The notes under the pieces were generated by a model. It ran no database searches and was not told the origin of the DNA. It was given only the letters and a program-made list of their open reading frames with translations. This document shows, piece after piece, positions 1-10,266 of a stretch of DNA of 10,266 nt (its first letter is position 1; every line of letters begins with the position of its first letter). Location: positions 1 to 10,266 of IMG/VR virus record IMGVR_UViG_3300028991_000027, one strand, 5' to 3'. The stretch is from a virus (Duplodnaviria > Heunggongvirae > Uroviricota > Caudoviricetes). Made by a program: the position numbers and the translations under genes.

Positions 1-496
1 CGAAAGTAAGCAATCAGCGGGGCCATCACATGCTGTTTCAGTGCCCTGCCCTTCGCCTCACAGCCATCATCTTTCGGGCGATACGGCCCCTGATAATGTT
101 CCGCGAACAGAATGCGCTCTGTGGCCGGAAAATACGCCCGCAGGCTTTCCTTGTTACACCCGTTCCAGCGTCCGGGCGGCTTTGCCCAGATGATATGGTT
201 CAGCACGTTAAACCGCTCACGCATCATGATTTCGGTGTCAGATGCCAGGCGATGCCCACAGAACAGGTATAGACTTCCTGCAGGTTTCAGCACCCGCCAG
301 AACTGCGCAAGACACTGGTCCAGCCACTTCAGGTAATCTTCATCACCCGCCCACTGGTTATCCCAGCCTTCGGGTTTCACTTTAAAGTATGGTGGGTCTG
401 TGACTATCAGATCGACAGAGTTTTCCGGTAAGGTCTGGATACCAGGCAATCAGCGTTGATTAACTCACAACTGGATATTTTTACAGTGTTAGCCAT
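1..496 (-). CDS. DNA methyltransferase, beta-class N6-adenine/N4-cytosine type; 3' end beyond window; N-terminus interrupted by an apparent -1 frameshift
   Basis: Minus-strand translation from ATG at 496-494 gives MANTVKISSCELINADCLVSRPYRKTLSI then TGA at 409-407. The -1 frame opens after a TGA at 452-450 and reads LPGIQTLPENSVDLIVTDPPYFKVKPEGWDNQW... with no stop down to position 1. DPPY (motif IV) near the N-terminus, preceded by an xxDCL and SVDLIVTDPPY context, is the beta-class arrangement. Not in the ORF track because it runs off the edge. Confidence 0.6.
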
Positions 497-646
497 AGAT
501 CAATAAGCACTTCTCTGATAGGCTCATACCGCTTTTGCGCAAAGCAGATGGGCCTGAGGTTTGCTTGTGACCCCAACGCATGAGCAGATGGCTGGCAGGT
601 GCCGCTAACACCCACCAGCCGCCCATTACCACAAATAAAAAAGCCT

Positions 647-823
647 TCACTGAGGAAGGCGTCTGTAACAACCGAACTGATAATCTGCCAGACCCGCCAT
701 AACCAGCTGGGTCAGTATTAACTGACAACGTTCGCGTGAAAGGTAAGTATTCTGCGCAATTTCCCCGACAGTCGCCGGTTCGGTGACGCTCAATTCATTA
801 AACACCACTCTGGCAGTTTCGGT
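647..823 (-). CDS. small hypothetical protein (59 aa from ATG at 823), possibly winged-helix DNA-binding
   Basis: Part of ORF 647..844. From the first ATG it reads MTETARVVFNELSVTEPATVGEIAQNTYLSRERCQLILTQLVMAGLADYQ, an HTH-like pattern. The AGGA directly abuts the ATG, so the ribosome-binding site is poor. It is the first ORF after the tR'-like terminator. Confidence 0.3.
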   Translation of the reverse strand, partial: TETARVVFNELSVTEPATVGEIAQNTYLSRERCQLILTQLVMAGLADYQFGCYRRLPQ

Positions 824-905
824 CATATCCTGCTGTTTTAGCAAGCTGAAAGACCGGTATTCACCGCCACCAGCGCGTTTACTGTACTGACGCGATTTCA
901 GTCAT

Positions 906-928
906 AAAAAACCCGCCTGGCGGCGGGG
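906..928 (-). terminator. rho-independent terminator (tR'-like) closing a short transcript from the late promoter
   Basis: Minus strand reads CCCGCC-gcca-GGCGGG followed by TTTTTTAT (plus-strand stem arms 912-917 and 922-927, A-run 906-911). About 65 nt downstream of the putative late promoter. Confidence 0.6.
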
Positions 929-975
929 TGTAAAAAATCTTCTAACGTCAGGCATAAAACGCCCATCGTTAGGGG

Positions 976-1003
976 GATTTACCACAGATTCGGGAAAAAT
1001 CAA
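976..1003 (-). promoter_or_regulatory. putative late promoter PR' (with expected Q-utilisation region) just downstream of the Q-like gene
   Basis: Minus strand: -35 TTGATT (plus 998-1003), 16-nt spacer, extended -10 TGgTAAATC (plus 976-984). It begins 5 nt after the Q-like stop codon and is followed by the terminator at 906-928, as in lambda PR'-tR'. Confidence 0.4.
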
Positions 1004-1008
1004 CAAAG

Positions 1009-1830
1009 CTATCTGGTCACCTTTTTCAGTTGTTGTTCTGCCCATGCTTCTTCAATATCAAACTGCACCACCAGCGTATCGTAAAAACGTTTAACTGTTT
1101 TTTTCCATGTATCAAGAGATATGGCATCGGTTACATTACATATGGCATTAAATGCCTCCGTTGAAGGTAATCTTTCATAGCCACGCCCACCACAACGCTG
1201 ACAGTTTCTGAAAACCGGCACACCCTGTTTTTCCGACTCTTCACGATGAATGGCAACACCGCGCCCACGACAATCTTTACAGGCTGTGGAAACCTCCCCC
1301 TTTCCGCTACACTCCGGACAGGCAACTTTTACCACCTCCCTGACTTTTTTCCATTCCTCCCAGTAAGACGGATACACGCCTTTTGTGCACTTTGCCCATA
1401 CTGGCGGCTTACCATCCGGATACTGGATCTTGTTTGTAAAAATCTCGCTTTCAATAAATTTTTTTCCGTGACAGCAGGGGCACTGTTTTTTGCTCGCCGC
1501 GCTACGGGCATAATCTTCAAACGCATACGAAGCCATAATGCGCATCACTGCCGGTTTTATTTCTGCCGGGAGTTTTCTTAACGCCGCCACGCAATCACAC
1601 CGACTGAGTGCATATTCTGTCAGCAATTCTGTTGCCCGCTCTCTGTCATTCATACTAATGCCCATTTTCCCAAGGAACGCAGAAAACCCCATCTCAGCCC
1701 GATTCTGTGTCATGCCCTGCGCTGCCATCACATCAGTGATACTCAGCGCATCTTTTGACGTCGAGGCAGAGGCATCTGTCAGGCCGGGGGATTTTGGTGA
1801 ATAGTACTTCGGTAAATCTTCCAGTTTCAT
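1009..1830 (-). CDS. late-gene antiterminator Q-like protein (273 aa) with four DnaJ-type CxxCxGxG zinc-finger repeats
   Basis: Complete ORF. Lies between rusA (ATGA stop/start overlap at 1827-1830) and the PR'/tR'-like pair. Cys repeats CPCCHGKK, CPECSGKG, CKDCRGRG, CQRCGGRG at aa 117-217. The Q assignment is mainly positional. Confidence 0.55.
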   Translation of the reverse strand: MKLEDLPKYYSPKSPGLTDASASTSKDALSITDVMAAQGMTQNRAEMGFSAFLGKMGISMNDRERATELLTEYALSRCDCVAALRKLPAEIKPAVMRIMASYAFEDYARSAASKKQCPCCHGKKFIESEIFTNKIQYPDGKPPVWAKCTKGVYPSYWEEWKKVREVVKVACPECSGKGEVSTACKDCRGRGVAIHREESEKQGVPVFRNCQRCGGRGYERLPSTEAFNAICNVTDAISLDTWKKTVKRFYDTLVVQFDIEEAWAEQQLKKVTR

Positions 1831-2201
1831 TTTTGGGCCTGTCCTTCATGCGTTATTTGGTAAATCTTCACACCCAGTCGTCCACCAGATACTGGCCGAC
1901 CACGTACAATATTGATTTCATCAAACTGCTCATCGTCCATTAACAGCCCTGCATGCGTCAGCGCATCCAGCGGCGCTTTCAGGATATTGTCCAGGTCACG
2001 ACGGCGCTTATCCGGTGGCTCTGCAATAATCCTGATTACCAGCCTTCCGGACAGGCTTAATTTCAGCCGCTGCTGGCGAACAATAAGCGCCACAGCCCGG
2101 CGATAACGCTTTCCCTCCTCCGAGATAAAATATGTACTGCCACGACGACGCCAGTAGGTGTTCACCGTTGGCGGGTAAGGTAAAACCAAATCTATGGGCA
2201 T
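1827..2201 (-). CDS. rusA: RusA-family Holliday junction resolvase (124 aa)
   Basis: ORF track protein contains RRRDLDN and surrounding sequence recalled as typical of RusA. ATG at 2201 is preceded by GAGGTG; its stop overlaps the Q-like start (ATGA). Confidence 0.85.
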   Translation of the reverse strand: MPIDLVLPYPPTVNTYWRRRGSTYFISEEGKRYRRAVALIVRQQRLKLSLSGRLVIRIIAEPPDKRRRDLDNILKAPLDALTHAGLLMDDEQFDEINIVRGRPVSGGRLGVKIYQITHEGQAQK

Positions 2202-2213
2202 CAGTCACCTCTT

Positions 2214-3263
2214 TTACCCAAGCACGCCTGTTGCGAAGGCGTGATCAAGAAAATGAAAAATTAACTCAACCTGGGAGCCGTACTTTTTCTCAAACTCCAG
2301 CGGGTCAGCATGAAGTTCGTTGTGGTGCTCCCGGCACAACGGTAGTGTGAAAATATCGTGGGCCTTTGTTCCCATTCCGCCCTGCCCATGGCCAATCAGG
2401 TGATGCGGATCATCAGCTGGCTTTCCACAACATGCGCACGGCTGCGTCTTAACCCAGCGTGTGTACTTTTCATTAACCCAGCGACGACGTTTAGGCCGTT
2501 TCATGAAAGATTCCGGAGACTCCGGATCAACGGCGATGCTTACTACCGTCTTTTCCTGTGGCGTGGTTTGTGGCTGGTGGGCGTGAAGCGGTAGCGCTAT
2601 GTTTTTTGTGCGCTGCTTCAGGATGCCGGTGGCGGTCTGCTCTCCCGGTATGATGTCGCTCTCACGGTATACGGAGCGGATTTTTTCCACCGGTAATCCC
2701 AGCGAACGACGCAATACAGACCCCGGAAGCGCATCAGCCACCTGATTGCAGACCGCCCACCAGGATAATTCGGCCAGCGATAACTCCCTCTCCTGCGTGC
2801 CATTCATTGCGTGACGGATGACGTCAATCATCCAGGCAGCCAGATTCTGCTGAGCAAGTTGCTCCAGTGAATCAGATGTCTGCTCCCGCAACTGGTTGTC
2901 GCAGTGCCAGCACAACACCATCGCGCCGGTACCGTAACGGTGAATGACGGTTTCGCTGTGATGATAATCGCCATGTGGCCACTGGCAGGATTTCACTTGA
3001 CGTAATAACCAGTCAGACAGTGCACCAGCACCACCTGCAGCACGGATCACCCGCTCATCACTGAAAAATGGCAGTAATGATTTATCCTCCACCAGCGGCT
3101 GGCGAACAGTGGGAACCGCTCCGGATGGCAGCGCCCGCATGTTTTTCGGTTCCGGCTCCACCAGCACCCTGCCGCAATGAAAAACCGGCAGTGATTCGCG
3201 ACCGGGCTTAAGGACCACCAGCCCGAGCTCCGGTACCAGAACAGGTCGAAGTAATACCCGCAC
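2214..3263 (-). CDS. DUF968-family phage protein (YdfU-like, 349 aa) with C-terminal HNH-type motif
   Basis: GTG start at 3263 preceded by GGAGG at 5 nt. C-terminal CACCGKPADDPHHLIGHGQGG...LCREHHNELH resembles an HNH zinc-binding nuclease motif. Length matches the DUF968 proteins of E. coli cryptic prophages as recalled. Confidence 0.75.
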   Translation of the reverse strand: MRVLLRPVLVPELGLVVLKPGRESLPVFHCGRVLVEPEPKNMRALPSGAVPTVRQPLVEDKSLLPFFSDERVIRAAGGAGALSDWLLRQVKSCQWPHGDYHHSETVIHRYGTGAMVLCWHCDNQLREQTSDSLEQLAQQNLAAWMIDVIRHAMNGTQERELSLAELSWWAVCNQVADALPGSVLRRSLGLPVEKIRSVYRESDIIPGEQTATGILKQRTKNIALPLHAHQPQTTPQEKTVVSIAVDPESPESFMKRPKRRRWVNEKYTRWVKTQPCACCGKPADDPHHLIGHGQGGMGTKAHDIFTLPLCREHHNELHADPLEFEKKYGSQVELIFHFLDHAFATGVLG

Positions 3264-3264
3264 G

Positions 3265-3537
3265 TTACCTCCAGATGCGTTGCTGGAATGTGCGGGACGG
3301 ACGCGGAGGGCGTTCGGAATAAGGAAGCCTGACAGAGATTATCCAGTGACGATAATCGAGACTGAGGGCTTTCTTAACCTCGTATCCGCGCCTGCGGTAA
3401 CACTGAATCAGCCATTCGGCCTGTTCTTCAGTGCATGGGGGATGCAGGTACCAGTGGGTTTTAAATACGTACGAATGCCGCCCCCGCTTAATGGCCGGGA
3501 CGGCTTCAGAATTGTGGGATTTTATATGTTGCGCCAT
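3265..3537 (-). CDS. hypothetical nin-region protein (about 90 aa from ATG 3537; ORF track extends to a TTG at 3585)
   Basis: ORF 3265..3585. Its stop lies 1 nt before the DUF968 GTG start, suggesting coupling. The TTG at 3585 sits almost inside the upstream terminator T-tract, so the internal ATG at 3537 (MAQHIKSHNSEAV...) is preferred. No family recognised. Confidence 0.4.
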   Translation of the reverse strand: MAQHIKSHNSEAVPAIKRGRHSYVFKTHWYLHPPCTEEQAEWLIQCYRRRGYEVKKALSLDYRHWIISVRLPYSERPPRPSRTFQQRIWR

Positions 3538-3600
3538 CGCAGCAGGTGTCAGTTGTTCAGGCTGACGGCGCGAATTGTAAGGCAATACGCCGGAATGTAC

Positions 3601-3628
3601 AAACAGAAACCCCGTCAGTAAGACGGGG
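3601..3628 (-). terminator. rho-independent terminator downstream of the OB-fold gene
   Basis: Minus strand: CCCCGTC-ttact-GACGGGG followed by TTTCTGTTT (plus stem arms 3610-3616 and 3622-3628). Confidence 0.5.
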
Positions 3629-3645
3629 ATAACCTGAACCGATTA

Positions 3646-3990
3646 CTATAATAATTTCAGAGTTTTTACATCCAGTTCAACACTGTTCAGGTCTTTATCA
3701 AGTTCCCCCTCAATTATTACCTTGTCTTTCGGAGAAACATTCTGCCCGGCCCATACACTTTTATCGATATCCGTGACAATGGTTCCGCTACTGTCGCGAA
3801 ACTCATAACGATCATCACCCAATTTTTTAACGATGTGCCCTTCAAGGATAACCCATGCCTCGTCCTTCTGTTCTTTTGCCTGCACTACTGTTGTTGAACG
3901 CTCTGCTTCAGACCCCAGAAAACCTCCCTGTTGTGCAAAAACGCCAAAAGACACGCAGGAAAAAAGGGCTGCGATTAATACTTTTTTCAT
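3646..3990 (-). CDS. YgiW/YdeI-family (BOF) OB-fold periplasmic protein with signal peptide (114 aa)
   Basis: Start taken at ATG 3990 (MKKVLIAALFSCVSFGVFAQQGGF...), preceded by GAGGA; the ORF-track N-terminal extension is not supported. QGGF, DDRYEFRDSSGTIVTDID and GELDKDLNSVELDVK match the YgiW/YdeI pattern as recalled. Flanked by its own terminator. Confidence 0.8.
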   Translation of the reverse strand: MKKVLIAALFSCVSFGVFAQQGGFLGSEAERSTTVVQAKEQKDEAWVILEGHIVKKLGDDRYEFRDSSGTIVTDIDKSVWAGQNVSPKDKVIIEGELDKDLNSVELDVKTLKLL

Positions 3991-4078
3991 TATCGTCCTC
4001 TTCAAGAAATTAACATGAACACTTGCATTGCAGCATATAAAATGCGGGTGCGTTGAGGATGCCTGACACATCAGAGGT

Positions 4079-4100
4079 GGCGAGGGATTTCTCCCTCGCC
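4079..4100 (-). terminator. stable GC hairpin at the 3' end of the hok transcript
   Basis: GGCGAGGGA-tttc-TCCCTCGCC, 8 nt past the hok stop codon. No clean U-tract on the minus strand, so it may be a 3' stabilising or fold-back element rather than an intrinsic terminator. Confidence 0.35.
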
Positions 4101-4107
4101 TGGTCTC

Positions 4108-4263
4108 TTACTTCTCAGATTCGTAGTCTACGAAGACAGCGACCTCCGTCTGGCCGGTTCGGATTCGTACCTCGCAGAGGTCTTTCCTCGTTACCAGTGC
4201 CGTCACTATGACGGTTAAACAGATGACGATCAGGGCGATTAACATCGCCTTTTGCTGCTTCAT
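4108..4263 (-). CDS. hok: Hok/Gef-family type I toxin (51 aa membrane peptide)
   Basis: Translated by hand from the minus strand: MKQQKAMLIALIVICLTVIVTALVTRKDLCEVRIRTGQTEVAVFVDYESEK. It is shorter than the ORF-track cutoff. Hydrophobic N-terminus and the TRKDLCEV...GQTEVA core match the Hok family. Confidence 0.9.
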   Translation of the reverse strand: MKQQKAMLIALIVICLTVIVTALVTRKDLCEVRIRTGQTEVAVFVDYESEK

Positions 4264-4321
4264 AGTCTGCTTCTCCTTGACCTTTCGGTCCGTAAGAGGC
4301 TAACCTACGTTTGTGAAGCAT
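4115..4321 (-). CDS. mok: mok-like overlapping reading frame (68 aa) upstream of and overlapping hok
   Basis: ORF 4115..4321 begins with ATG 58 nt upstream of hok and overlaps it in another frame, as mok does in hok/sok loci. The protein itself is low-complexity; the call is positional. Confidence 0.4.
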   Translation of the reverse strand: MLHKRRLASYGPKGQGEADYEAAKGDVNRPDRHLFNRHSDGTGNEERPLRGTNPNRPDGGRCLRRLRI

Positions 4322-4380
4322 AGATTGGGCCTCAGATTAATGTTAAGCGTCTTGCAGGACGCGTAATGTTAACTGGGGCT
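4290..4380 (+). ncRNA. sok: possible sok-like antisense RNA region (position inferred, boundaries not defined)
   Basis: In hok/sok loci the antisense RNA overlaps the mok start on the opposite strand. Here I find only a weak plus-strand promoter candidate (TTGACC 4277-4282, poor -10) and a small hairpin GCGTC-ttgcag-GACGC at 4347-4362. It may be degenerate. Confidence 0.2.
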
Positions 4381-4439
4381 TTTCTCTGTCTGCCTTACGG
4401 CGGCATGCCCGAGGCAGACAGCCTCAGGCACCCGCAGCA

Positions 4440-4467
4440 ATTCTACTTTACTCTCGTTTTACTGCAA
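4440..4467 (-). promoter_or_regulatory. putative sigma70 promoter for hok/mok mRNA
   Basis: Minus strand: TTGCAG (plus 4462-4467), 16-nt spacer, TAGAAT (plus 4440-4445). This gives a leader of roughly 110 nt before the mok-like ATG. Confidence 0.45.
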
Positions 4468-4571
4468 ACCTTTTATCCCGGGCGCATATTACCCGATATG
4501 GGAACTCACACATCGAAATGAATTCGCTTCCATTGCCCCCTCAATCACATAACCAGACACATAAAATGTAC

Positions 4572-4601
4572 TTGCCATCTGAAGAGACAATAATCTAAAC
4601 T
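4572..4601 (+). promoter_or_regulatory. putative promoter for the plus-strand DUF1640-like gene
   Basis: TTGCCA (4572-4577), 18-nt spacer, TAAACT (4596-4601), followed by SD AAGGA (4623-4627) 9 nt before the ATG at 4637. Confidence 0.3.
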
Positions 4602-4636
4602 CAGAAGATCCCTCAATAGCATAAGGAATTGATATT

Positions 4637-4924
4637 ATGGGTCACGTCTATTTTGACACATTAAAATTTGCCGAAGCACTGGAAAAAGCTGGCATGCCAG
4701 CTGAACAGGCGCGCGCCATTTCCTCCGCAATAAAAGATGCCCATGAGGCAATTGAAGTTGCAACTAAAAATGACCTTCACTACGCAAGCTCAGAACTTAA
4801 GCGCGATATTCTGTCAATTAATGAGAAAATTGACCACCTCATATTTCAAGTAACTTTTCGGTTAGGGGTAATAATTTCTATATGTATAGTAGTTGTATTT
4901 GCCATAATTAAAATGAATATGTAA
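4637..4924 (+). CDS. small coiled-coil protein with C-terminal transmembrane helix (DUF1640-like, 95 aa)
   Basis: Complete ORF with a good SD. Protein MGHVYFDTLKFAEALEKAGMPAEQARAISSAIKDAHEA... ends in the hydrophobic LGVIISICIVVVFAIIKM. Opposite strand to all neighbours, with its own terminator. Family name is from memory. Confidence 0.65.
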   Translation: MGHVYFDTLKFAEALEKAGMPAEQARAISSAIKDAHEAIEVATKNDLHYASSELKRDILSINEKIDHLIFQVTFRLGVIISICIVVVFAIIKMNM

Positions 4925-4937
4925 CAACCAGCCATAT

Positions 4938-4976
4938 AACGGGCTGATATTTATTATATCAGCCCGTTGTCTTTTT
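4938..4976 (+). terminator. rho-independent terminator after the DUF1640-like gene
   Basis: AACGGGCTGATAT-ttatt-ATATCAGCCCGTT followed by GTCTTTTT. The minus-strand copy lacks a U-tract. Confidence 0.7.
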
Positions 4977-5000
4977 AAATAAGACAAGGCGTAACAGTTG

Positions 5001-5456
5001 TCAAAGAAATATTAATTGCTTCATTCTGCATGACATTACCGCCCTTTCTGTCGCCCTCATGATATATTTAAGGTGTAGACACGCCTCCGCCATTCTGATA
5101 ATCGGGTCTTCTGAAGTCATCTTTTCTGGCGAATCGCAGTCAGCACCACATTCAGTAATGCGTTCATAATCAAAACGAGCGGTGATTTTATGTGCACCAA
5201 TCATTTGCGTAAGCGCATCTGTCAACTCTGCAATGCGCTTATCTTTGGCTTCCAACTCGCCCGGCAGCACCAGTGCTACCTTTAGATTAAAGGTAGCAAT
5301 GAAGTCCGCGTTATTTTTCAGAATATGGTGCACAATAAGTACACCATTGAGTTTTACCTTGTAACCTCGTGCGCCACAATGCGGTCTATATGAGCTCCAG
5401 TCTCCCCCACGTTGCTTTTTCTGAAGCGTCACGCATCTTCCGGTAATTAATTTCAA
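5001..5456 (-). CDS. hypothetical protein (up to 151 aa); last gene of the minus-strand operon before the moron island
   Basis: ORF 5001..5456. The start is a TTG overlapping the DUF4406 stop (TTGA), with AGGAGA 10 nt upstream; the first in-frame ATG is far downstream, so the true start is uncertain. Six Cys and an R-x6-H near the C-terminus (RMAEACLH). No family recognised. Confidence 0.5.
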   Translation of the reverse strand: MKLITGRCVTLQKKQRGGDWSSYRPHCGARGYKVKLNGVLIVHHILKNNADFIATFNLKVALVLPGELEAKDKRIAELTDALTQMIGAHKITARFDYERITECGADCDSPEKMTSEDPIIRMAEACLHLKYIMRATERAVMSCRMKQLIFL

Positions 5457-5752
5457 TCACTGGTTGTCTCCTGGAAAATAACTGCATGCCCCAATTTCTC
5501 CGCCAGTGCCAGCTCTGCCTTAGCGCCCGCTGACCGCTGCCAGCCTTTCAGCATGTAAATCGCATCCACACAACGAATCATTGCCATGCAAATATCCATG
5601 TAATGTGGCTGAGTCAGCCCGTCCGGAAGTACTGCCGGGTTTAAAACGGTATGCCCTTCCCGTTTCAGCGCTTCTTCCGCCTTGTGAAACGCATCACGGT
5701 TGAAATTTTCATATCCCGTCATCGGACCAGCGATATAAATTCTCACCCTCAC
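5453..5752 (-). CDS. DUF4406-family protein (nucleoside 2-deoxyribosyltransferase-like fold, 99 aa)
   Basis: GTG start preceded by AGGAGG at 8 nt. N-terminal RIYIAGPMTGYENFN...VLNP matches the remembered DUF4406 signature. Confidence 0.7.
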   Translation of the reverse strand: MRVRIYIAGPMTGYENFNRDAFHKAEEALKREGHTVLNPAVLPDGLTQPHYMDICMAMIRCVDAIYMLKGWQRSAGAKAELALAEKLGHAVIFQETTSD

Positions 5753-6003
5753 TCCATCACCTCCTGAAAATTACCCTGACAGAACGCCAGTACACGCTGC
5801 ATGACTTCGCTATTTCGGCACTCACAGCAAATTATGTTCTTATGCCTGTCATAGCGGCGTATTTCTCCGTCTGGTAACTTTCGAATCAATGTCTGGTCAG
5901 TTGTTTTCTCCGGTGTCTTACGCCATACGCGATACACCTGTTCAGATGCAAAAACACCGTATTTACCGGACATGTATAAATCGCCACAAGCCAGTACATC
6001 CAC
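5749..6003 (-). CDS. hypothetical ORF, possibly the C-terminal part of a frameshifted gene whose N-terminus is ORF 5886..6143
   Basis: ORF track. Its stop overlaps the DUF4406 GTG start (GTGA), but neither the GTG at 6003 nor the ATG at 5973 has a recognisable SD, and it overlaps ORF 5886..6158 by about 118 nt in another frame. Confidence 0.3.
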   Translation of the reverse strand: MDVLACGDLYMSGKYGVFASEQVYRVWRKTPEKTTDQTLIRKLPDGEIRRYDRHKNIICCECRNSEVMQRVLAFCQGNFQEVME

Positions 6004-6143
6004 AAGGCAACGTCTGACTGAATGCCAGCCTGTCCCGTCGCTCTCTCCAGTTGTGATATCGTCATGCGTTCATTTTTGCGTACCAACCCGATAATTCGGG
6101 CCTTCAGTTCTTCACGCTGTTCGTGTGTAAAAGGTTTCGCCAT
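5886..6143 (-). CDS. small hypothetical protein with HTH-like N-terminus (85 aa from ATG 6143)
   Basis: ATG at 6143 is preceded by GGAGG and follows the upstream stop by 15 nt. N-terminus MAKPFTHEQREELKARIIGLVRKNERMTISQLERATGQ looks like real protein; the C-terminal 40 aa are W/Y/C/H-rich and resemble out-of-frame translation. Confidence 0.4.
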   Translation of the reverse strand: MAKPFTHEQREELKARIIGLVRKNERMTISQLERATGQAGIQSDVALWMYWLVAIYTCPVNTVFLHLNRCIAYGVRHRRKQLTRH

Positions 6144-6158
6144 AAGCGCCTCCGGCAA

Positions 6159-6884
6159 TCACTTTTCCGACACAATACGACCGGATGAATCGACAATCTG
6201 CCGAACAATATCCCGGTGCTTGTTCAACTCCCGCAACGCGGCACAGACTCGTTCCCACTTCTGGACATCACTTTTCGCCCGGCGCAGCTCGCGGTTAGCC
6301 ACATGCAGCGATGGTAGAATCAGGTCATCTGCTTTCGTTTCGGTGACCGATGGCTGTAACTTCACAATGTCTTCCACGATTTCTGTTTTCATTTCTTCCT
6401 GTGTCGTCGTTTCCTGGACTGGTAACGCAACACCTGCTGGCTGAGGAAAGGCTTTACCATCGGTTTCCGCTACGGATGCCGCTTCCGGCTCTGCCGGTAA
6501 ATCAGCGCCCGGTATGCAGTAACGAAATTTACCGCCCTGATTCACGCGAATCAGACGCCCTTTGCTGATTGCCATTGCCAGCGATGAATTCGCCCGGCGG
6601 GAGGTAATTCCGAACATCAGTGCCAGTTCATCCGCCGTTTGTGGGCCATGTTGTTCAATCGCCTCTGTCAGCATTTGCGCTGTCACTTTCGGTACCGGTG
6701 ACACCGGTTCACTTTCACCAGCCTGAGTCAGCCACCACATCGACCCCTTGTTATCCGCTTCACCGCGGCGCTTCAGTTTCCACAGTTCGTTGACCGCCTC
6801 TTCACGGCTGATTCCAAGGCGCGATGCCACTACCTGTGAAGAGGCTTTTTTCAGTGCTTTCAGTGCGTCAAATACGGTTTCCAT
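6159..6884 (-). CDS. phage protein with two N-terminal winged-helix-like domains, acidic linker and C-terminal coiled coil (241 aa from ATG 6884)
   Basis: ORF 6159..6902; the ATG at 6884 with GGAGG upstream is preferred over the TTG at 6902. Two HTH-like segments ([27 protein letters not shown] and [28 protein letters not shown]). Sits directly after the DnaC-like gene. Function unknown. Confidence 0.6.
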
Positions 6885-6905
6885 TAAAACGTCCTCCGAC
6901 AAAAA

Positions 6906-7652
6906 TTACTTCACAACCCTCTGATTGCTGACATTTGGACGCCAGCTATCCCAGTTAAACGTCACCCATCGACCACCGTTCATGGTCATGCGGTCCATAA
7001 TCCTCTCACCGAGAAGCGTACTCATTGCGGCATGATTCAGGTTTGTTAACATCCCGACACTGCACAGTGATGCTGTCCGGCGATCAATTATCTGGTGCAA
7101 TACCACCTGCTCGTTTTTCGTCTCACGCTGAACGCCTATTTCATCCAGGACCAGCAAATCAACCCCGCAAAGCTCCTGTAAAAATTTTTCCCCGGACTGG
7201 CCGTTGTCGTAGCTGTCATGCAACACACTCATGACGTCAGACACGGTGACGATAATCACGCTGCTCCCCTTCGCCATCAGCCGGTTGCCCATCGCCGCTG
7301 CAAGGTGATTTTTCCCGGTGCCGGTTTTACCGCTGAACACAAAATTCGTGCACCCGGTCATCAGTTCGTCAGCGATGGATTTTGCCTGGCTCAGCGCGTG
7401 TTTTTGCCCGTCGTTCTGCACCTGATAATTCGCAAACGAGCATTTGCTGTGCAGAGGCTGGATGCCCGAACGATTCAGGATTTTTTCCACCCGCAACTGG
7501 CGATTCTGGCGGTTAATCTCCTCGCTGCGTTTTCGTCCTTCAGCAAGCTGCCATTCCCGCCACTCCTCCACCGTCCGGTACGGTGGAACCGCCCCCTGTG
7601 GTGCAAGTCTGCGAATACGTTCAAGAACCCCGGCTGCCGCAATGTTTTTCAT
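6906..7652 (-). CDS. DnaC-family helicase loader (phage replication protein P analogue, 248 aa)
   Basis: Walker A FVFSGKTGTGKNHLAAA, Walker B DLLVLDEIGVQ, and a C-terminus (MLTNLNHAAMSTLLGERIMDRM...FNWDSWRP) close to E. coli DnaC as recalled. ATG at 7652. Confidence 0.9.
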   Translation of the reverse strand: MKNIAAAGVLERIRRLAPQGAVPPYRTVEEWREWQLAEGRKRSEEINRQNRQLRVEKILNRSGIQPLHSKCSFANYQVQNDGQKHALSQAKSIADELMTGCTNFVFSGKTGTGKNHLAAAMGNRLMAKGSSVIIVTVSDVMSVLHDSYDNGQSGEKFLQELCGVDLLVLDEIGVQRETKNEQVVLHQIIDRRTASLCSVGMLTNLNHAAMSTLLGERIMDRMTMNGGRWVTFNWDSWRPNVSNQRVVK

Positions 7653-7658
7653 GCCACG

Positions 7659-8627
7659 TCACCCCCTGAATCCAGGCGGTATTTCAGTGTCCGGTTCAGA
7701 AATGTGATTCACGCAACGCTGCGCGGGCGAACGCCCCAGGCGGATAACCAGTTCATCCCATTTTTCCCGGAGTTTTGCCGGACTCATGATGTTTTTTACC
7801 CAGAACGAATCCCGCTGGACACGCCCAAACATTTCACAAATCTGCCGGTGACTACGTCCATCCAGCATACGCATCATGCGCACATCATTCGCCCAGGTCG
7901 TCCAGTTAGGTTCTCGGGGGCGTGACACCTCACCATCATCACTGGCGGCCTGTTCATACAACGCCACAACCCGTCCCCAAATCCACTGCGCACAGGCGAC
8001 ATCCTCACGGGTACCCCACTGTCGCTTCGGTACATTCCAGGTATGCGCATCCGGGTGTTTCTCCAGAAATCGCTCAACTGGTGATGATTGTTTTTCGTCC
8101 GGCAGTGAAACGTCCGGACAAGAAGATCTTTTATCTGACGGATCAGGTTTTAATACTGACGGATCGGGGTCAATCATCGCCCCCCTAATCGGCAGTTTTT
8201 TATCAACCGTTGATCCATCAAAATTTGACGGGTCAACCGTTGAGGGGTCAATATTTGACGGGTCAACTGTTAACGGGTCATTTTTTGCCGGGCTAATTTT
8301 TCTTTTCGGTTTATATGACTCACGCGCCGCCGCCGCAGCTGCTTCGAGTTTTTCCACATTAAGCCGATAGATATTGCTTACATTACGCCCACCGACCTTA
8401 CGCTCTTCCTTCGTCAGCCAGCCCTCTTTCGCCAGTTCTGCAATAGCCGATTTCACGGTGGATTCACTTCTTGCACCGATCTGACGCCGGATAGTTTCAA
8501 TGGCAGGCCATGACACGCCCTCGTCATTGCTGTAGTCTGCTAGACGGGCCATCACTGCCACCCGGGATAAGATCATGCCGGTGAAGGCGCATCCTTCCCA
8601 GACAAGACCATGAAGCTTGCTGCTCAT
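7659..8627 (-). CDS. replication initiator, lambda O-like (N-terminal winged-helix domain, repeat-encoded linker, C-terminal domain; 322 aa from ATG 8627)
   Basis: ORF 7659..8642; the ATG at 8627 preceded by GGGGG is preferred over the GTG at 8642. It lies immediately upstream of the DnaC-like gene, and the iteron repeats fall inside its linker (DPLTVDPSNIDPSTVDPSNFDGSTVD), as in lambda O. Confidence 0.75.
   Translation of the reverse strand: MSSKLHGLVWEGCAFTGMILSRVAVMARLADYSNDEGVSWPAIETIRRQIGARSESTVKSAIAELAKEGWLTKEERKVGGRNVSNIYRLNVEKLEAAAAAARESYKPKRKISPAKNDPLTVDPSNIDPSTVDPSNFDGSTVDKKLPIRGAMIDPDPSVLKPDPSDKRSSCPDVSLPDEKQSSPVERFLEKHPDAHTWNVPKRQWGTREDVACAQWIWGRVVALYEQAASDDGEVSRPREPNWTTWANDVRMMRMLDGRSHRQICEMFGRVQRDSFWVKNIMSPAKLREKWDELVIRLGRSPAQRCVNHISEPDTEIPPGFRG
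8137..8320. repeat. iteron-like direct repeats plus AT-rich tract: putative origin of replication inside the O-like gene
   Basis: A 20-bp repeat TTTGACGGGTCAAC(C/T)GTT(G/A)A at 8224-8243 and 8254-8273. The GGGTCA core recurs at about 15-bp spacing (around 8166, 8230, 8244, 8260, 8275), with GACGGATCA variants at 8137 and 8158. An AT-rich stretch follows at 8281-8320. Confidence 0.6.
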
Positions 8628-8649
8628 AAAACCCCCGAACACCGTGCTT

Positions 8650-9075
8650 TTAGTGCATCACCACAGCATTCCCTGCCGGGCCGCCGCGATTCATCTGGTC
8701 ATACAAAACAACCGCTGACGCAACAAAATCGTCGACATCCTTCACCAGCCGATCCCGCCGTTCGACGATCTCACGGTAATACTCAGAACTGTGGCTGCGC
8801 ATACGGGCCACCAGCAAAGGCGGCATCGCCTTTTCGATCGCTGGTAACAGAGCCTGAATTTTTTCAACAGCATCAGGGGTGTCTTTATCCAACCAACGGA
8901 AAATTTTCTGGGTATTACGGGCCAGGGCTTCCGGATGACTGTCGTCGTACAGTTCCGGGAACGTCATCCCCAGCTCGAAATACGCTTTGGTAATTTTCGC
9001 AGCCGGTACTTTTTCGCCGTCCGGATGCGCCCAGGCATTCATCGCCATGCGGATGTGCTCATGCTTGATTTTCAT
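8650..9075 (-). CDS. YdaT-family protein (141 aa), second gene of the cro-side operon
   Basis: Complete ORF beginning MKIKHEHI...; ATGA overlap with the cro-like stop. Family assignment is from remembered similarity to Rac YdaT. Confidence 0.65.
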   Translation of the reverse strand: MKIKHEHIRMAMNAWAHPDGEKVPAAKITKAYFELGMTFPELYDDSHPEALARNTQKIFRWLDKDTPDAVEKIQALLPAIEKAMPPLLVARMRSHSSEYYREIVERRDRLVKDVDDFVASAVVLYDQMNRGGPAGNAVVMH

Positions 9076-9299
9076 GAATCACTCTTCCTTTCGCTCTGAG
9101 TGGTATCCTTCTTTTTGTAAAGCTCTGGGTTCAAAGATAATTTTCCCTTGGAGTATGCAGCAGCTTCCGCAGCTCTCCCTTTCGGAACTATTTCACCGGG
9201 GCGCTTACGCCACATGTAAATAGCTTCGCGGGTTATCCCATAAAAATCAGCGACCCTCTGAACAGAGCCAAAAAACTGAACAAGTTCATCAACTCGCAT
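9072..9299 (-). CDS. Cro-like HTH regulator, YdaS family (75 aa)
   Basis: ATG at 9299 preceded by AGGAGG. HTH segment VADFYGITREAIYMWRKR. Divergent from the CI-like gene across the operator region. Confidence 0.75.
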   Translation of the reverse strand: MRVDELVQFFGSVQRVADFYGITREAIYMWRKRPGEIVPKGRAAEAAAYSKGKLSLNPELYKKKDTTQSERKSDS

Positions 9300-9312
9300 T
9301 TCATCCTCCTAA

Positions 9313-9379
9313 AATCTAAGTATTTTTAGATTACAGGATAATTTTTTTTAGGTCAATGCAATCTAAAATAATTTATATT
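9313..9379. promoter_or_regulatory. OR-like operator/promoter region between the cro-like and cI-like genes
   Basis: O1 AATCTAAgtatttTTAGATT (9313-9332) and O2 AATCTAAaataatTTATATT (9360-9379). Minus-strand PR candidate: -35 TTGACC (plus 9351-9356), 17-nt spacer, -10 TAATCT (plus 9328-9333) overlapping O1. Plus-strand PRM candidate: -10 TATATT (9374-9379) overlapping O2, with a poor -35. Confidence 0.6.
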
Positions 9380-9395
9380 CAACTCGCGGGAGAAA

Positions 9396-10043
9396 ATGAT
9401 GGAAAGCCTTGGCATCAGGCTTAAGAAACTCAGAAAAGATAAGGGACTCACCCAAGTAGAACTGGGTAAGCTTTCAGGCGTGACCGGGGTTACTATAGGG
9501 TACTGGGAGAAAGATCTAAACGAACCCGGCAGCAAAGCTCTAAGTAAGTTAGCCCAAGCATTAGGAACTACTGAGTCCTATCTCCTGTATGGAGTATCGT
9601 CTCCTGAACTATCTTTTGTGCAGAGCAATCCAGGCACCAAGATCCCCTACTTTTCGTGGGGTGACGCGATTTCTTTCCTAATCTTAGAAGGAGAGAAAAC
9701 AATGGGAAATGTCGATAGGATCACCACATTCTTTGATGTAGTGGAAGGTGATTTTGCCGTTTCAATGCCTGATGACACTATGCATAACCCCTCAGGGTCG
9801 CCAAGTATCCCAGTTGGTGCCACTGTGATCCTAAGACCAGGAGAAAGTTATAAAAATGGCAGTATCGTCGCTGTAATAGTTCCAGATCCTCTTACAAATG
9901 AACCGTCTATGACTATAAAAAAATTAGTTATTGATGGAAAACTTGTGTATTTAAGCCCTCTCAATCCGCGCTATCAATCATCCTTGCTTACGCCAGAGTG
10001 TAAAATTGTTGCCGTAGCAAAAGGTGTACAGTTCAACCTATAA
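9396..10043 (+). CDS. CI-type prophage repressor (N-terminal HTH, C-terminal S24 LexA-like peptidase domain, 215 aa)
   Basis: HTH GLTQVELGKLSGVTGVTIGYWEKD. C-terminal domain contains candidate Ser and Lys motifs (GDFAVSM, IKKLVIDGKLVYLSPLNPRY). Divergent from the cro-like gene and flanked by operator-like sites on both sides. Confidence 0.85.
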   Translation: MMESLGIRLKKLRKDKGLTQVELGKLSGVTGVTIGYWEKDLNEPGSKALSKLAQALGTTESYLLYGVSSPELSFVQSNPGTKIPYFSWGDAISFLILEGEKTMGNVDRITTFFDVVEGDFAVSMPDDTMHNPSGSPSIPVGATVILRPGESYKNGSIVAVIVPDPLTNEPSMTIKKLVIDGKLVYLSPLNPRYQSSLLTPECKIVAVAKGVQFNL

Positions 10044-10064
10044 CCCTGCCATGTTCTTGAACTT

Positions 10065-10092
10065 AAGGTCGGTTATGTCGACCTTTTTTTTA
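10065..10092 (+). terminator. rho-independent terminator after the cI-like gene
   Basis: AAGGTCG-gttatgt-CGACCTT followed by TTTTTTT, 22 nt after the stop codon. Confidence 0.65.
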
Positions 10093-10110
10093 AATTAATT
10101 TAGATTCCTC

Positions 10111-10139
10111 TTGACTATAAAACTAAATACTTTTAGATT
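10111..10139 (+). promoter_or_regulatory. PL-like promoter with OL-like operator, directed rightward out of the window
   Basis: -35 TTGACT (10111-10116), 17-nt spacer, -10 TAGATT (10134-10139). Operator AAACTAAatacttTTAGATT (10120-10139) matches the OR consensus at 6 of 7 and 7 of 7 half-site positions; another TTAGATT sits at 10100-10106. Confidence 0.5.
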
Positions 10140-10235
10140 TGTTGTATACCAACCCACCCCGCTCCACAGAACGTCGGGCAATACCTCGAGTTACCCGGCA
10201 GTGGTCAGGGGTTAAGTAGCCAGCCCGAGGCGTAT

Positions 10236-10266
10236 GAACATGACGGCGGGAACACTTTGTATAACA
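10236..10266 (+). CDS. 5' end of an unidentified plus-strand gene running off the right edge
   Basis: ATG at 10236 preceded by GAGG 4 nt upstream, about 95 nt after the PL-like promoter. Only 10 codons (MNMTAGTLCI) are visible. Confidence 0.2.

What the first reader, a model, noticed from the sequence alone, without database searches (positions are those of the whole stretch)
410..496. Apparent -1 frameshift in the N-terminus of the DNA methyltransferase
The ATG frame encodes MANTVKISSCELINADCL and stops at 409-407. The catalytic frame, with SVDLIVTDPPY, is the -1 frame and is closed upstream by a TGA at 452-450. The conserved N-terminal context is therefore split between two frames within 410-449, most likely around 440-447. 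This is either a pseudogenising 1-nt deletion, a sequencing error, or a TTG restart at 449 that would give an N-terminally truncated enzyme. It determines whether this prophage can methylate its own DNA.
Basis: seen in the sequence. Interest (0 to 1): 0.55.

Follow-up and report, generated by a model that had tools for sequence, protein, structure and literature searches.

The report
Frameshifted prophage adenine methyltransferase pseudogene
A prophage gene for a DNA-methylating enzyme, a close relative of the non-specific adenine methylase M.EcoGII, is broken at its 19th codon by a real, inherited 4-base deletion, so this is an ordinary decaying prophage gene and not a sequencing error or a recoding signal.

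Summary
On the minus strand an ATG at 496 opens a 29-codon ORF that stops at 409-407. The DPPY-containing frame is the -1 frame, closed upstream by TGA 452-450 and followed by TTG 449.

The lesion is not a 1-nt deletion. It is a 4-nt deletion (AATT) between window bases 442 and 441. Intact homologues read CTGG-AATT-TATCCAG, encoding L-E-F-I-Q.

The gene is about 90% identical at protein level to M.EcoGII. It lies downstream of the Q antiterminator and two terminator-like hairpins in a lambdoid prophage.

The same junction occurs in at least 9 independent E. coli draft assemblies, SRA assemblies and gut metagenome contigs, so it is not a sequencing error. It is absent from 5,426 complete E. coli genomes and 50,697 phage records.

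Other lesions occur in the same prophage lineage:
- G314D in the SAM-binding FxGxG motif
- a separate 2-nt deletion in the methylase gene
- a nonsense codon in Q

A rescue is unlikely. TTG 449 has no Shine-Dalgarno sequence and there is no slippery heptamer. The lost N-terminus is conserved, and the four apparent "short-start" homologues I checked are start-call artefacts.

Verdict: ordinary pseudogenisation, low interest.

The parts
407..496 (-). Remnant 29-codon ORF. The native ATG (496-494) and codons 1-18 of the methyltransferase (MANTVKISSCELINADCL) are followed by 11 out-of-frame codons (VSRPYRKTLSI) and TGA 409-407. A second stop, TAG 406-404, follows immediately.
   Evidence: the N-terminus is identical to intact alleles L006/L011 up to L18
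441..442 (-). Deletion junction. Four bases (AATT) are missing between G442 and T441. They are the 2nd and 3rd bases of codon 19 (GAA, Glu) and the 1st and 2nd bases of codon 20 (TTT, Phe) of the intact gene.
   Evidence: alignment A1; the variable-site table shows the gap at gene nt 56-59
447..452 (-). TGA 452-450 closes the catalytic frame upstream. TTG 449-447 is the only conventional start codon in that frame before DPPY, and a gene caller used it to call a 335-aa product in relatives.
   Evidence: (L012 gene 4944-5951)
1..449 (-). Catalytic-frame remainder of the methyltransferase (residues 18-166 of a 352-aa protein). It is open to the window edge and the gene runs off the window. Motif IV DPPY is at 398-387.
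   Evidence: 92% identical to M.EcoGII residues 18-166; PF01555 hit on the full-length sister alleles
643..660 (-). Terminator-like hairpin followed by a T-run, immediately after the 65-aa ORF and upstream of the methyltransferase.
647..844 (-). 65-aa ORF between Q and the methyltransferase. It is conserved at this position in relatives and is named 'TrmB family transcriptional regulator' in the phiP27 RefSeq record. It has no Pfam hit.
912..927 (-). Terminator-like hairpin followed by a T-run downstream of Q, in a tR'-like position.
1009..1830 (-). Antitermination protein Q (273 aa, intact in the window). It places the methyltransferase in the Q-dependent late transcript.
   Evidence: PF03589, E = 4e-51

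Best explanation
This is a genuine, heritable 4-bp deletion (loss of AATT at codons 19-20). It frameshifts and inactivates a prophage-borne beta-class N6-adenine DNA methyltransferase of the M.EcoGI/M.EcoGII family. Translation from the native ATG ends after 29 codons at a double stop. The 335 codons carrying DPPY, the target-recognition region and the SAM-binding motif are left in the -1 frame without an efficient start. The gene sits downstream of Q and two terminator-like hairpins, so even the intact gene would be made only after prophage induction (position shown, timing inferred). The inferred consequence is that phage DNA made from this prophage is no longer adenine-hypermethylated, while the lysogen is unaffected. 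The allele arose in one sub-lineage of E. coli lambdoid prophages and has since been moved onto several haplotype backgrounds by recombination. That lineage carries other inactivating lesions in the same gene and in Q, so this is ordinary prophage gene decay. Shown here: the deletion, its heritability, its family assignment and its context. Inferred: loss of activity, single origin and order of events.
For: 1. Alignment to three intact phage homologues shows a clean 4-nt gap and no other disruption.
2. The exact junction is present in L007, L012/L020, L013, L015, L021, L022, L023, L024 and L025. These are NCBI draft assemblies, a Logan SRA assembly seen in 3 samples, an ENA human gut metagenome and one further metagenome contig. 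Intact sister alleles that differ by few other bases exist in the same prophage lineage: L004, L006, L011.
3. No complete E. coli genome (5,426) and no phage record (50,697) has a word spanning the junction, so the one-frame gene is the family norm.
4. The intact sister allele is 90% identical to M.EcoGII, and the window fragment is 92% identical. M.EcoGII is prophage-borne, unexpressed in lysogens and harmful when expressed (PMC5778455).
5. Further lesions occur in the same lineage. G941A gives G314D in FxGxG, in most carriers and also in the deletion-free L016 and L018. L016 has a 2-nt deletion at gene nt 505-506. L021, L022 and L025 have Q K26*. G314 is Gly in 41 of 50 diverse relatives and never Asp.
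6. There is no Shine-Dalgarno sequence before TTG 449 and no X XXY YYZ heptamer in the 449-410 overlap.
7. The lost segment is conserved: hydrophobic at position 12 in 43 of 45 and Asp16 in 38 of 45 representatives that have the segment. An AlphaFold model of a 62%-identical relative folds it confidently, with strands 3-7 and 10-14, helix 17-23 and pLDDT 93-98.
8. The 335-aa TTG product is in the protein collection on 4 NCBI contigs but carries no NCBI protein accession.
Against: 1. The downstream 328 codons remain open in every carrier that covers them. This is expected if the lesion is recent, but it is also what continued use would give.
2. A gene caller does call the TTG-start 335-aa product, and it still scores on PF01555 (E = 3.8e-43).
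3. The native ATG also lacks a good Shine-Dalgarno sequence, so the absence of one before TTG 449 is weak evidence.
4. The C-terminal half of the gene lies outside the window, so I cannot say whether this copy also carries G314D. The window is L006-like at gene nt 457 and 478, and L023 shows that a carrier can have an intact GSG motif.
5. No activity data exist for any allele.
Confidence: 0.86

Rival explanations
1. Restart at TTG 449 yields an N-terminally truncated (335 aa) but active methyltransferase, so the gene is attenuated and not dead.
For: TTG 449 is in the catalytic frame directly after the upstream stop, and the frame is open from there onward. A gene caller picks it in L012, L021, L023 and L025. 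The PF01555 profile starts at residue 29, so it is fully retained. The ORF stays open in all carriers.
Against: There is no Shine-Dalgarno sequence before the TTG (best anti-SD duplex -2.2 kcal/mol, 13 nt away), TTG is a weak start, and it lies inside the ORF translated from the native ATG. The product would lack two predicted strands and the start of the helix that precedes the DPPY strand. These are conserved in relatives and confidently modelled. In 126 of 136 family representatives there are at least 7 residues upstream of this point. All 4 apparent exceptions checked on DNA have the segment in frame upstream. Most carriers also have G314D in the SAM-binding motif.
Confidence: 0.07
2. Sequencing or assembly error: the real genome has the intact CTGGAATTTATCC sequence.
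For: A Dcm site (CCTGG) abuts the junction, and methylated motifs are known trouble spots for some long-read basecallers (my own knowledge, not tested). The source reads of the window could not be inspected.
Against: The identical 4-nt deletion occurs in at least 9 independent records from different projects and pipelines, and on differing haplotypes. It is not in a homopolymer. An assembler cannot create a junction that is absent from the reads.
Confidence: 0.02
3. Programmed or efficient spontaneous -1 ribosomal frameshifting within 449-410 joins the two frames into a near-full-length enzyme.
For: The required shift is -1, and the 40-nt overlap contains an A4 run (424-421) and rare Arg codons (AGA, CGG) that could pause ribosomes.
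Against: There is no X XXY YYZ heptamer. The two-frame arrangement is confined to one sub-lineage, while thousands of homologues are single-frame. Any shifted product would carry a scrambled VSRPYRK-type segment in place of the conserved EFIQTLPE helix and would be one residue shorter.
Confidence: 0.02

Closest known systems
M.EcoGII / M.EcoGI, non-specific adenine DNA methyltransferases of E. coli O104:H4 C227-11 prophages (PMC5778455; sequence in PMC11551740 supplement)
   Same: Protein identity is about 90-92%. Both are beta-class, with an N-terminal DPPY. Both are prophage-borne. The homologue in phage 1720a-02, which the M.EcoGII paper names as very similar, matches the window at 89.8% nucleotide identity and also lies just downstream of Q.
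   Different: M.EcoGII is an intact 349-aa ORF with demonstrated activity. The window copy is split by a 4-nt deletion at codon 19, and no activity is known for it.
Intact sister alleles in the same prophage lineage (L006/L011, L004; E. coli 'site-specific DNA-methyltransferase', e.g. EFA3634798.1)
   Same: The flanks are the same (DUF968, RusA, Q, 65-aa ORF, then tRNA-Met/Arg/Arg and a DUF1737/SASA esterase gene). The 4.5 kb shared with the window is 98.6-98.7% identical. The methyltransferase N-terminus is identical up to L18 in L006/L011.
   Different: They retain AATT and encode the full 352-aa protein.
Methyltransferase of Stx-converting phages (phiP27 L24, Stx2a/Stx2c phage 'DNA methylase')
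   Same: Gene order is the same (Q, small ORF, methylase, tRNAs), with 83-93% nucleotide identity.
   Different: Those phages carry stx downstream and have intact 352-aa genes. The carriers of the deletion examined here have no stx between the tRNAs and the esterase gene.
Solved beta-class methyltransferases (M.RsrI 1EG2/1NW8; 'Methyltransferase' 8URK/9C3U; CcrM 6PBD)
   Same: The motif IV and motif I blocks align. The alignment to 8URK/9C3U begins at query residue 8 and to M.RsrI at residue 15, so the segment lost here is part of the shared fold.
   Different: These are distant relatives (E = 1e-24 to 1e-16) with a different central domain. There is no solved structure of the M.EcoGII clade itself.

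Membership tests
Beta-class N6/N4 amino-methyltransferase (Pfam PF01555 N6_N4_Mtase) | Catalytic motif IV (D/N/S)PP(Y/F/W) near the N-terminus, preceded by a hydrophobic strand | tested here: met
   SVDLIVTDPPY lies in the catalytic frame, with DPPY at 398-387. D35, P37 invariant and P36, Y38 nearly invariant in 50 relatives.
Beta-class N6/N4 amino-methyltransferase (Pfam PF01555 N6_N4_Mtase) | Profile match above the curated cut-off | tested here: met
   Full-length sister allele P0001 scores 149.6 bits and the TTG-start form P0002 scores 148.4 bits, against a cut-off of 26.7. The window fragment itself was not scanned alone, but it is 92% identical to M.EcoGII.
Beta-class N6/N4 amino-methyltransferase (Pfam PF01555 N6_N4_Mtase) | C-terminal SAM-binding motif I, FxGxG | tested here: inconclusive
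   This part of the gene lies beyond window base 1. In related carriers it reads FFMGSDST (G314D), except in L023, which has FFMGSGST.
M.EcoGI/M.EcoGII non-specific adenine methyltransferase family | High sequence identity to M.EcoGII over the whole protein | tested here: met
   314 of 349 residues (90%) for the intact sister allele and 137 of 149 (92%) for the window's catalytic-frame fragment. The reference sequence was machine-read from a PDF supplement, so a few mismatches may be reading errors.
M.EcoGI/M.EcoGII non-specific adenine methyltransferase family | Location on a lambdoid prophage in the late, Q-dependent region | tested here: met
   Q (PF03589) is at 1009-1830 and two terminator-like hairpins are at 927-912 and 660-643, both upstream on the same strand. 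The order is the same in phiP27, Stx2 phages and 1720a-02.
M.EcoGI/M.EcoGII non-specific adenine methyltransferase family | Methylates adenine in any sequence context | not testable with these tools
   This needs biochemistry or methylome data.
M.EcoGI/M.EcoGII non-specific adenine methyltransferase family | Single uninterrupted ORF of about 349-352 codons | tested here: not met
   The 4-nt deletion splits the gene into a 29-codon ORF and a -1-frame remainder. It is therefore filed as a pseudogene copy of this family and not as a functional member.
Programmed -1 ribosomal frameshift site | Slippery heptamer X XXY YYZ in the overlap of the two frames | tested here: not met
   None is found between 496 and 410. 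Only an A4 run is present at 424-421.
Programmed -1 ribosomal frameshift site | Two-frame arrangement conserved among homologues | tested here: not met
   All phage homologues and all copies in complete E. coli genomes are single-frame. No junction-spanning word exists in either collection.
Programmed -1 ribosomal frameshift site | Downstream stimulatory RNA structure | not tested
   This was not pursued once the two tests above failed.
Frameshift pseudogene | Indel of a length not divisible by 3 relative to intact orthologues, leading to an early stop | tested here: met
   The deletion is 4 nt and a stop follows after 11 out-of-frame codons.
Frameshift pseudogene | The lesion is inherited and not an artefact | tested here: met
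   At least 9 independent records carry it.
Frameshift pseudogene | Signs of relaxed constraint, i.e. additional lesions in the lineage | tested here: met
   G314D, a 2-nt deletion in L016 and Q K26* are seen in relatives. None of these is visible inside the window itself.

The most novel reading that the evidence does not exclude
The loss may be adaptive and not neutral. One prophage lineage has three separate hits on the same M.EcoGII-type gene (loss of AATT, G314D in the SAM motif, loss of GC at nt 505-506) plus a nonsense codon in its activator Q. This could reflect selection in lysogens against leaky expression of a non-specific adenine methylase, which is known to harm the cell when expressed. 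A less likely variant is that the TTG-start 335-aa form survives as a low-dose, partly active enzyme.
Probability: 0.15. Interest if true: 0.4.

Novelty: new member of a known kind. Interest (0 to 1): 0.13.

Why it matters
The value is mostly practical. The locus should be annotated as a pseudogene, not as a 335-aa methyltransferase as one gene caller does, and the break should be recorded as a 4-bp deletion. Biologically, phage particles from this prophage would not carry the blanket adenine methylation that M.EcoGII-type enzymes are thought to give phage DNA against restriction in new hosts. That would narrow the phage's effective host range, while the lysogen's own methylome should be unchanged. 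The AATT-deletion junction is also a handy lineage marker for this prophage sub-group. It is found in draft E. coli genomes and human gut metagenomes but in none of 5,426 complete genomes.

Tried and rejected
1. I searched for the junction as an exact pattern. The 30-mer gave no hit in GTDB representative genomes or in IMG/VR. The 22-mer in metagenomes gave two hits: L015 is real, and L014 is a chance match in unrelated sequence.
2. The exact source of the window was not found. The closest relative, L025, is 99.4% identical over 4.3 kb, so the 3' half of this copy of the gene remains unseen.
4. The 29-aa peptide and the L007-type 335-aa product are not in the protein collection as exact sequences.
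5. A recurrent-hotspot origin was considered, because the site is a quasi-palindrome (CTGGA-ATTTA-TCCAG). I judged it unlikely: none of about 2,400 copies in complete genomes has the deletion.
6. Reinitiation after the TGA at 409-407 was considered. The only overlapping candidates are CUG 410 and AUA 407, and the first conventional start after TTG 449 (GTG 380) lies beyond DPPY. I rejected it.
7. A literature search for frameshifted M.EcoGII homologues found nothing relevant.

Full report
**Observation.** On the minus strand an ATG at 496-494 opens a 29-codon ORF, MANTVKISSCELINADCLVSRPYRKTLSI. It ends at TGA 409-407 and is followed at once by TAG 406-404. The frame one base upstream reads ...R*LPGIQTLPENSVDLIVTDPPYFKVKPEGWDNQW... 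and stays open to window base 1, so the gene runs off the window. Its last upstream stop is TGA 452-450, the next codon is TTG 449-447, and DPPY is at 398-387.

**What the lesion is.** The region matches the "DNA methylase" gene of 46 phage records (Stx2-converting phages, phiP27, 1720a-02) at 83-93% identity. All the best full-length matches span 704-705 bases for 700 bases of query. Alignment with phiP27 and two Stx2a phages shows one clean 4-column gap. Intact genes read GAT TGC CTG GAA TTT ATC CAG (D-C-L-E-F-I-Q), while the window reads GAT TGC CTG G----T ATC CAG. AATT is therefore missing between window G442 and T441.

**Is it real?** Contigs that encode exactly the window's Q protein and DUF968 protein were retrieved. 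The identical junction is present in these records:
- L007 (GCA_031591255.1)
- L012, the same contig as L020 (GCA_902844255.1)
- L013 (GCA_023636965.1)
- L021 (GCA_002513075.1)
- L022 (GCA_021857565.1)
- L024 (GCA_018134245.1)
- L025 (Logan SRR17847230, contig seen in 3 samples)
- L023 (ENA human gut metagenome)
- L015 (metagenome contig OBWF01001590.1)

A second metagenome hit, L014, is an unrelated chance 22-mer match. Contigs of the same prophage lineage with the intact junction also exist: L004, L006, L011, L016 and L018. These records come from different projects and assemblers, and the deletion is not in a homopolymer, so sequencing error is excluded.

The allele is confined to this sub-lineage. 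A 44-nt query centred on the junction can only seed on carriers, and it finds nothing in 5,426 complete E. coli genomes or in 50,697 phage records. A 121-nt query finds 2,371 copies of the gene in complete genomes. All 40 listed best hits span 125 nt, and the top hit is 96.0% identical, so any carrier with up to 4 mismatches would have ranked above it.

**What the gene is.** The intact sister allele (352 aa, named "site-specific DNA-methyltransferase [Escherichia coli]" by NCBI) hits PF01555 N6_N4_Mtase at 1.7e-43. It is 90% identical to the M.EcoGII sequence printed in the supplement of PMC11551740, and the window's catalytic-frame fragment is 92% identical. According to PMC5778455:
- M.EcoGII is a beta-class enzyme that methylates adenine in any context.
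- It belongs to a very large family on E. coli prophages, including phage 1720a-02.
- It is not expressed in the lysogen.
- It is deleterious when expressed constitutively.

In the window the gene lies downstream of antiterminator Q (1009-1830, PF03589), a 65-aa ORF (647-844) and two terminator-like hairpins (927-912 and 660-643), all on the minus strand. In relatives it is followed by tRNA-Met, tRNA-Arg and tRNA-Arg and then a DUF1737/SASA esterase gene. No stx gene is present in the carriers. Late, Q-dependent expression is inferred from this position.

**Can the gene still work?** I tested three rescue routes.

1. *Restart at TTG 449.* No Shine-Dalgarno sequence precedes it: the best anti-SD duplex is -2.2 kcal/mol and lies 13 nt away. 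It also lies inside the ORF translated from the native ATG. The native ATG has a poor Shine-Dalgarno sequence too, so this argument is weak on its own.

   The product would lack residues 1-17 and have residues 19-20 altered. An AlphaFold model of a 62%-identical relative (mean pLDDT 94.3) puts two strands at residues 3-7 and 10-14 and a helix at 17-23, just before the strand that leads into DPPY at 29-34. pLDDT is 93-98 over this stretch. From the class-beta motif order IV-TRD-I (PMC7544214) I infer that strand 10-14 supplies the outer strand of the seven-stranded core sheet. The segment is conserved: position 12 is L/V/I in 43 of 45 and Asp16 is present in 38 of 45 diverse representatives that have the segment. 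Even the distant solved enzymes 8URK/9C3U and M.RsrI align from query residues 8 and 15.

I ran phmmer with the window fragment against 1.84 billion cluster representatives. Of 136 hits that reach the fragment's N-terminus, 126 have at least 7 residues upstream of that point. Of 86 near-full-length hits, 5 appear to start there. Four of those five could be traced to DNA. All four carry the conserved strand and D(C)-type segment in frame upstream, with a GTG, TTG or ATG start, so the short starts are start-call artefacts. The fifth was not on record. The refutation test is therefore not met.

2. *Ribosomal frameshifting.* The 449-410 overlap has no X XXY YYZ heptamer, only an A4 run. The two-frame state is not conserved in the family.

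3. *Reinitiation after the stop.* No usable start codon lies before DPPY.

**Decay in the lineage.** A variable-site table of the gene in 14 related contigs shows further lesions:
- G941A, giving G314D in the SAM-binding FxGxG motif (FFMGSGST becomes FFMGSDST). It is present in most carriers and also in L016 and L018, which lack the deletion, so it probably came first.
- An independent 2-nt deletion at gene nt 505-506 in L016.
- K26* in Q, in carriers L021, L022 and L025.

Position 314 is Gly in 41 of 50 diverse relatives and never Asp. From memory, and not checked here, substitutions of the FxGxG glycines abolish SAM binding in other adenine methylases.

The deletion sits on several haplotypes. 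The window is L004-like up to gene nt 338 but L006-like at nt 457 and 478. L015 and L023 are other mosaics, and L023 has regained GSG. No copy outside this lineage has the deletion, so a single origin followed by recombination between prophages fits better than a mutational hotspot. This is an inference.

**Verdict.** This is a real, inherited frameshift pseudogene of an M.EcoGII-family prophage methyltransferase. The mechanism of loss is shown, while the loss of activity is inferred with high confidence (about 0.85). Residual uncertainty comes from the still-open downstream frame and the unseen 3' half of this copy. The finding is ordinary for prophages. Its practical use is in annotation and as a lineage marker. 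The only mildly interesting open reading is that repeated hits on a toxic non-specific methylase reflect selection and not drift.

Noticed in passing
window 4115-4433 (-): There is a hok/sok-type toxin-antitoxin module inside the prophage. Rfam sok RNA (RF01794, 103.9 bits) lies at 4261-4433 and overlaps the start of a 68-codon ORF at 4115-4321. The shorter gene calls for this ORF in relatives (51/70 aa) hit PF01848 HOK_GEF, but the 68-aa translation itself gave no Pfam hit at E <= 0.001.
   Followed up: partly
L007, L013, L016, L018, L020-L022, L024, L025: gene nt 941 (codon 314): A G-to-A change turns the SAM-binding motif FFMGSGST into FFMGSDST. It is found both with and without the 4-nt deletion, so it is probably the older lesion in this lineage.
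   Followed up: partly
L016 about 9272-9273 (gene nt 505-506): An independent 2-nt (GC) deletion frameshifts the same methyltransferase in a contig that has the intact N-terminal junction. No gene was called there.
   Followed up: partly
L021 about 3178, L022 about 3100, L025 about 2517 (Q codon 26): Three deletion carriers have a nonsense codon (K26*) in antiterminator Q. Q is intact in the window (1009-1830).
   Followed up: partly
window about 4480: Similarity to all related contigs starts abruptly here. Window 1-4480 is 98-99% identical to them. The early region (4481-10266: DnaC-like, HTH_36 replication protein, YdaT, cI-like repressor) does not align even with L016/L018, which extend 6 kb further. 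This looks like a typical lambdoid mosaic breakpoint.
   Followed up: no
window 435-445 (-) and the intact homologues: The deletion site is a quasi-palindrome in the intact gene (CTGGA-ATTTA-TCCAG) and abuts a Dcm site (CCTGG). The deletion removes part of one arm and part of the loop. This may bear on how the deletion arose.
   Followed up: no
protein P0026: This is a 349-aa cluster representative of the M.EcoGII family in which essentially every difference is a coding-strand C-to-T change (P to L/F, A to V, T to I/M, R to C/W, H to Y; DPPY becomes DLLY). It looks like an assembly of bisulfite-converted or otherwise deaminated reads and not a natural protein.
   Followed up: no
protein P0033: This 97-aa representative starts MEFIQTLPENSVDL... 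and diverges after residue 69 into unrelated sequence (LMNPLMILVK...). It suggests yet another disrupted copy of the gene elsewhere, possibly by an insertion.
   Followed up: no
window 647-844 (-): A 65-aa ORF lies between Q and the methylase and ends in a terminator-like hairpin. RefSeq calls it 'TrmB family transcriptional regulator' in phiP27, but it has no Pfam hit. One Stx2a phage record marks its counterpart as a possible pseudogene.
   Followed up: no
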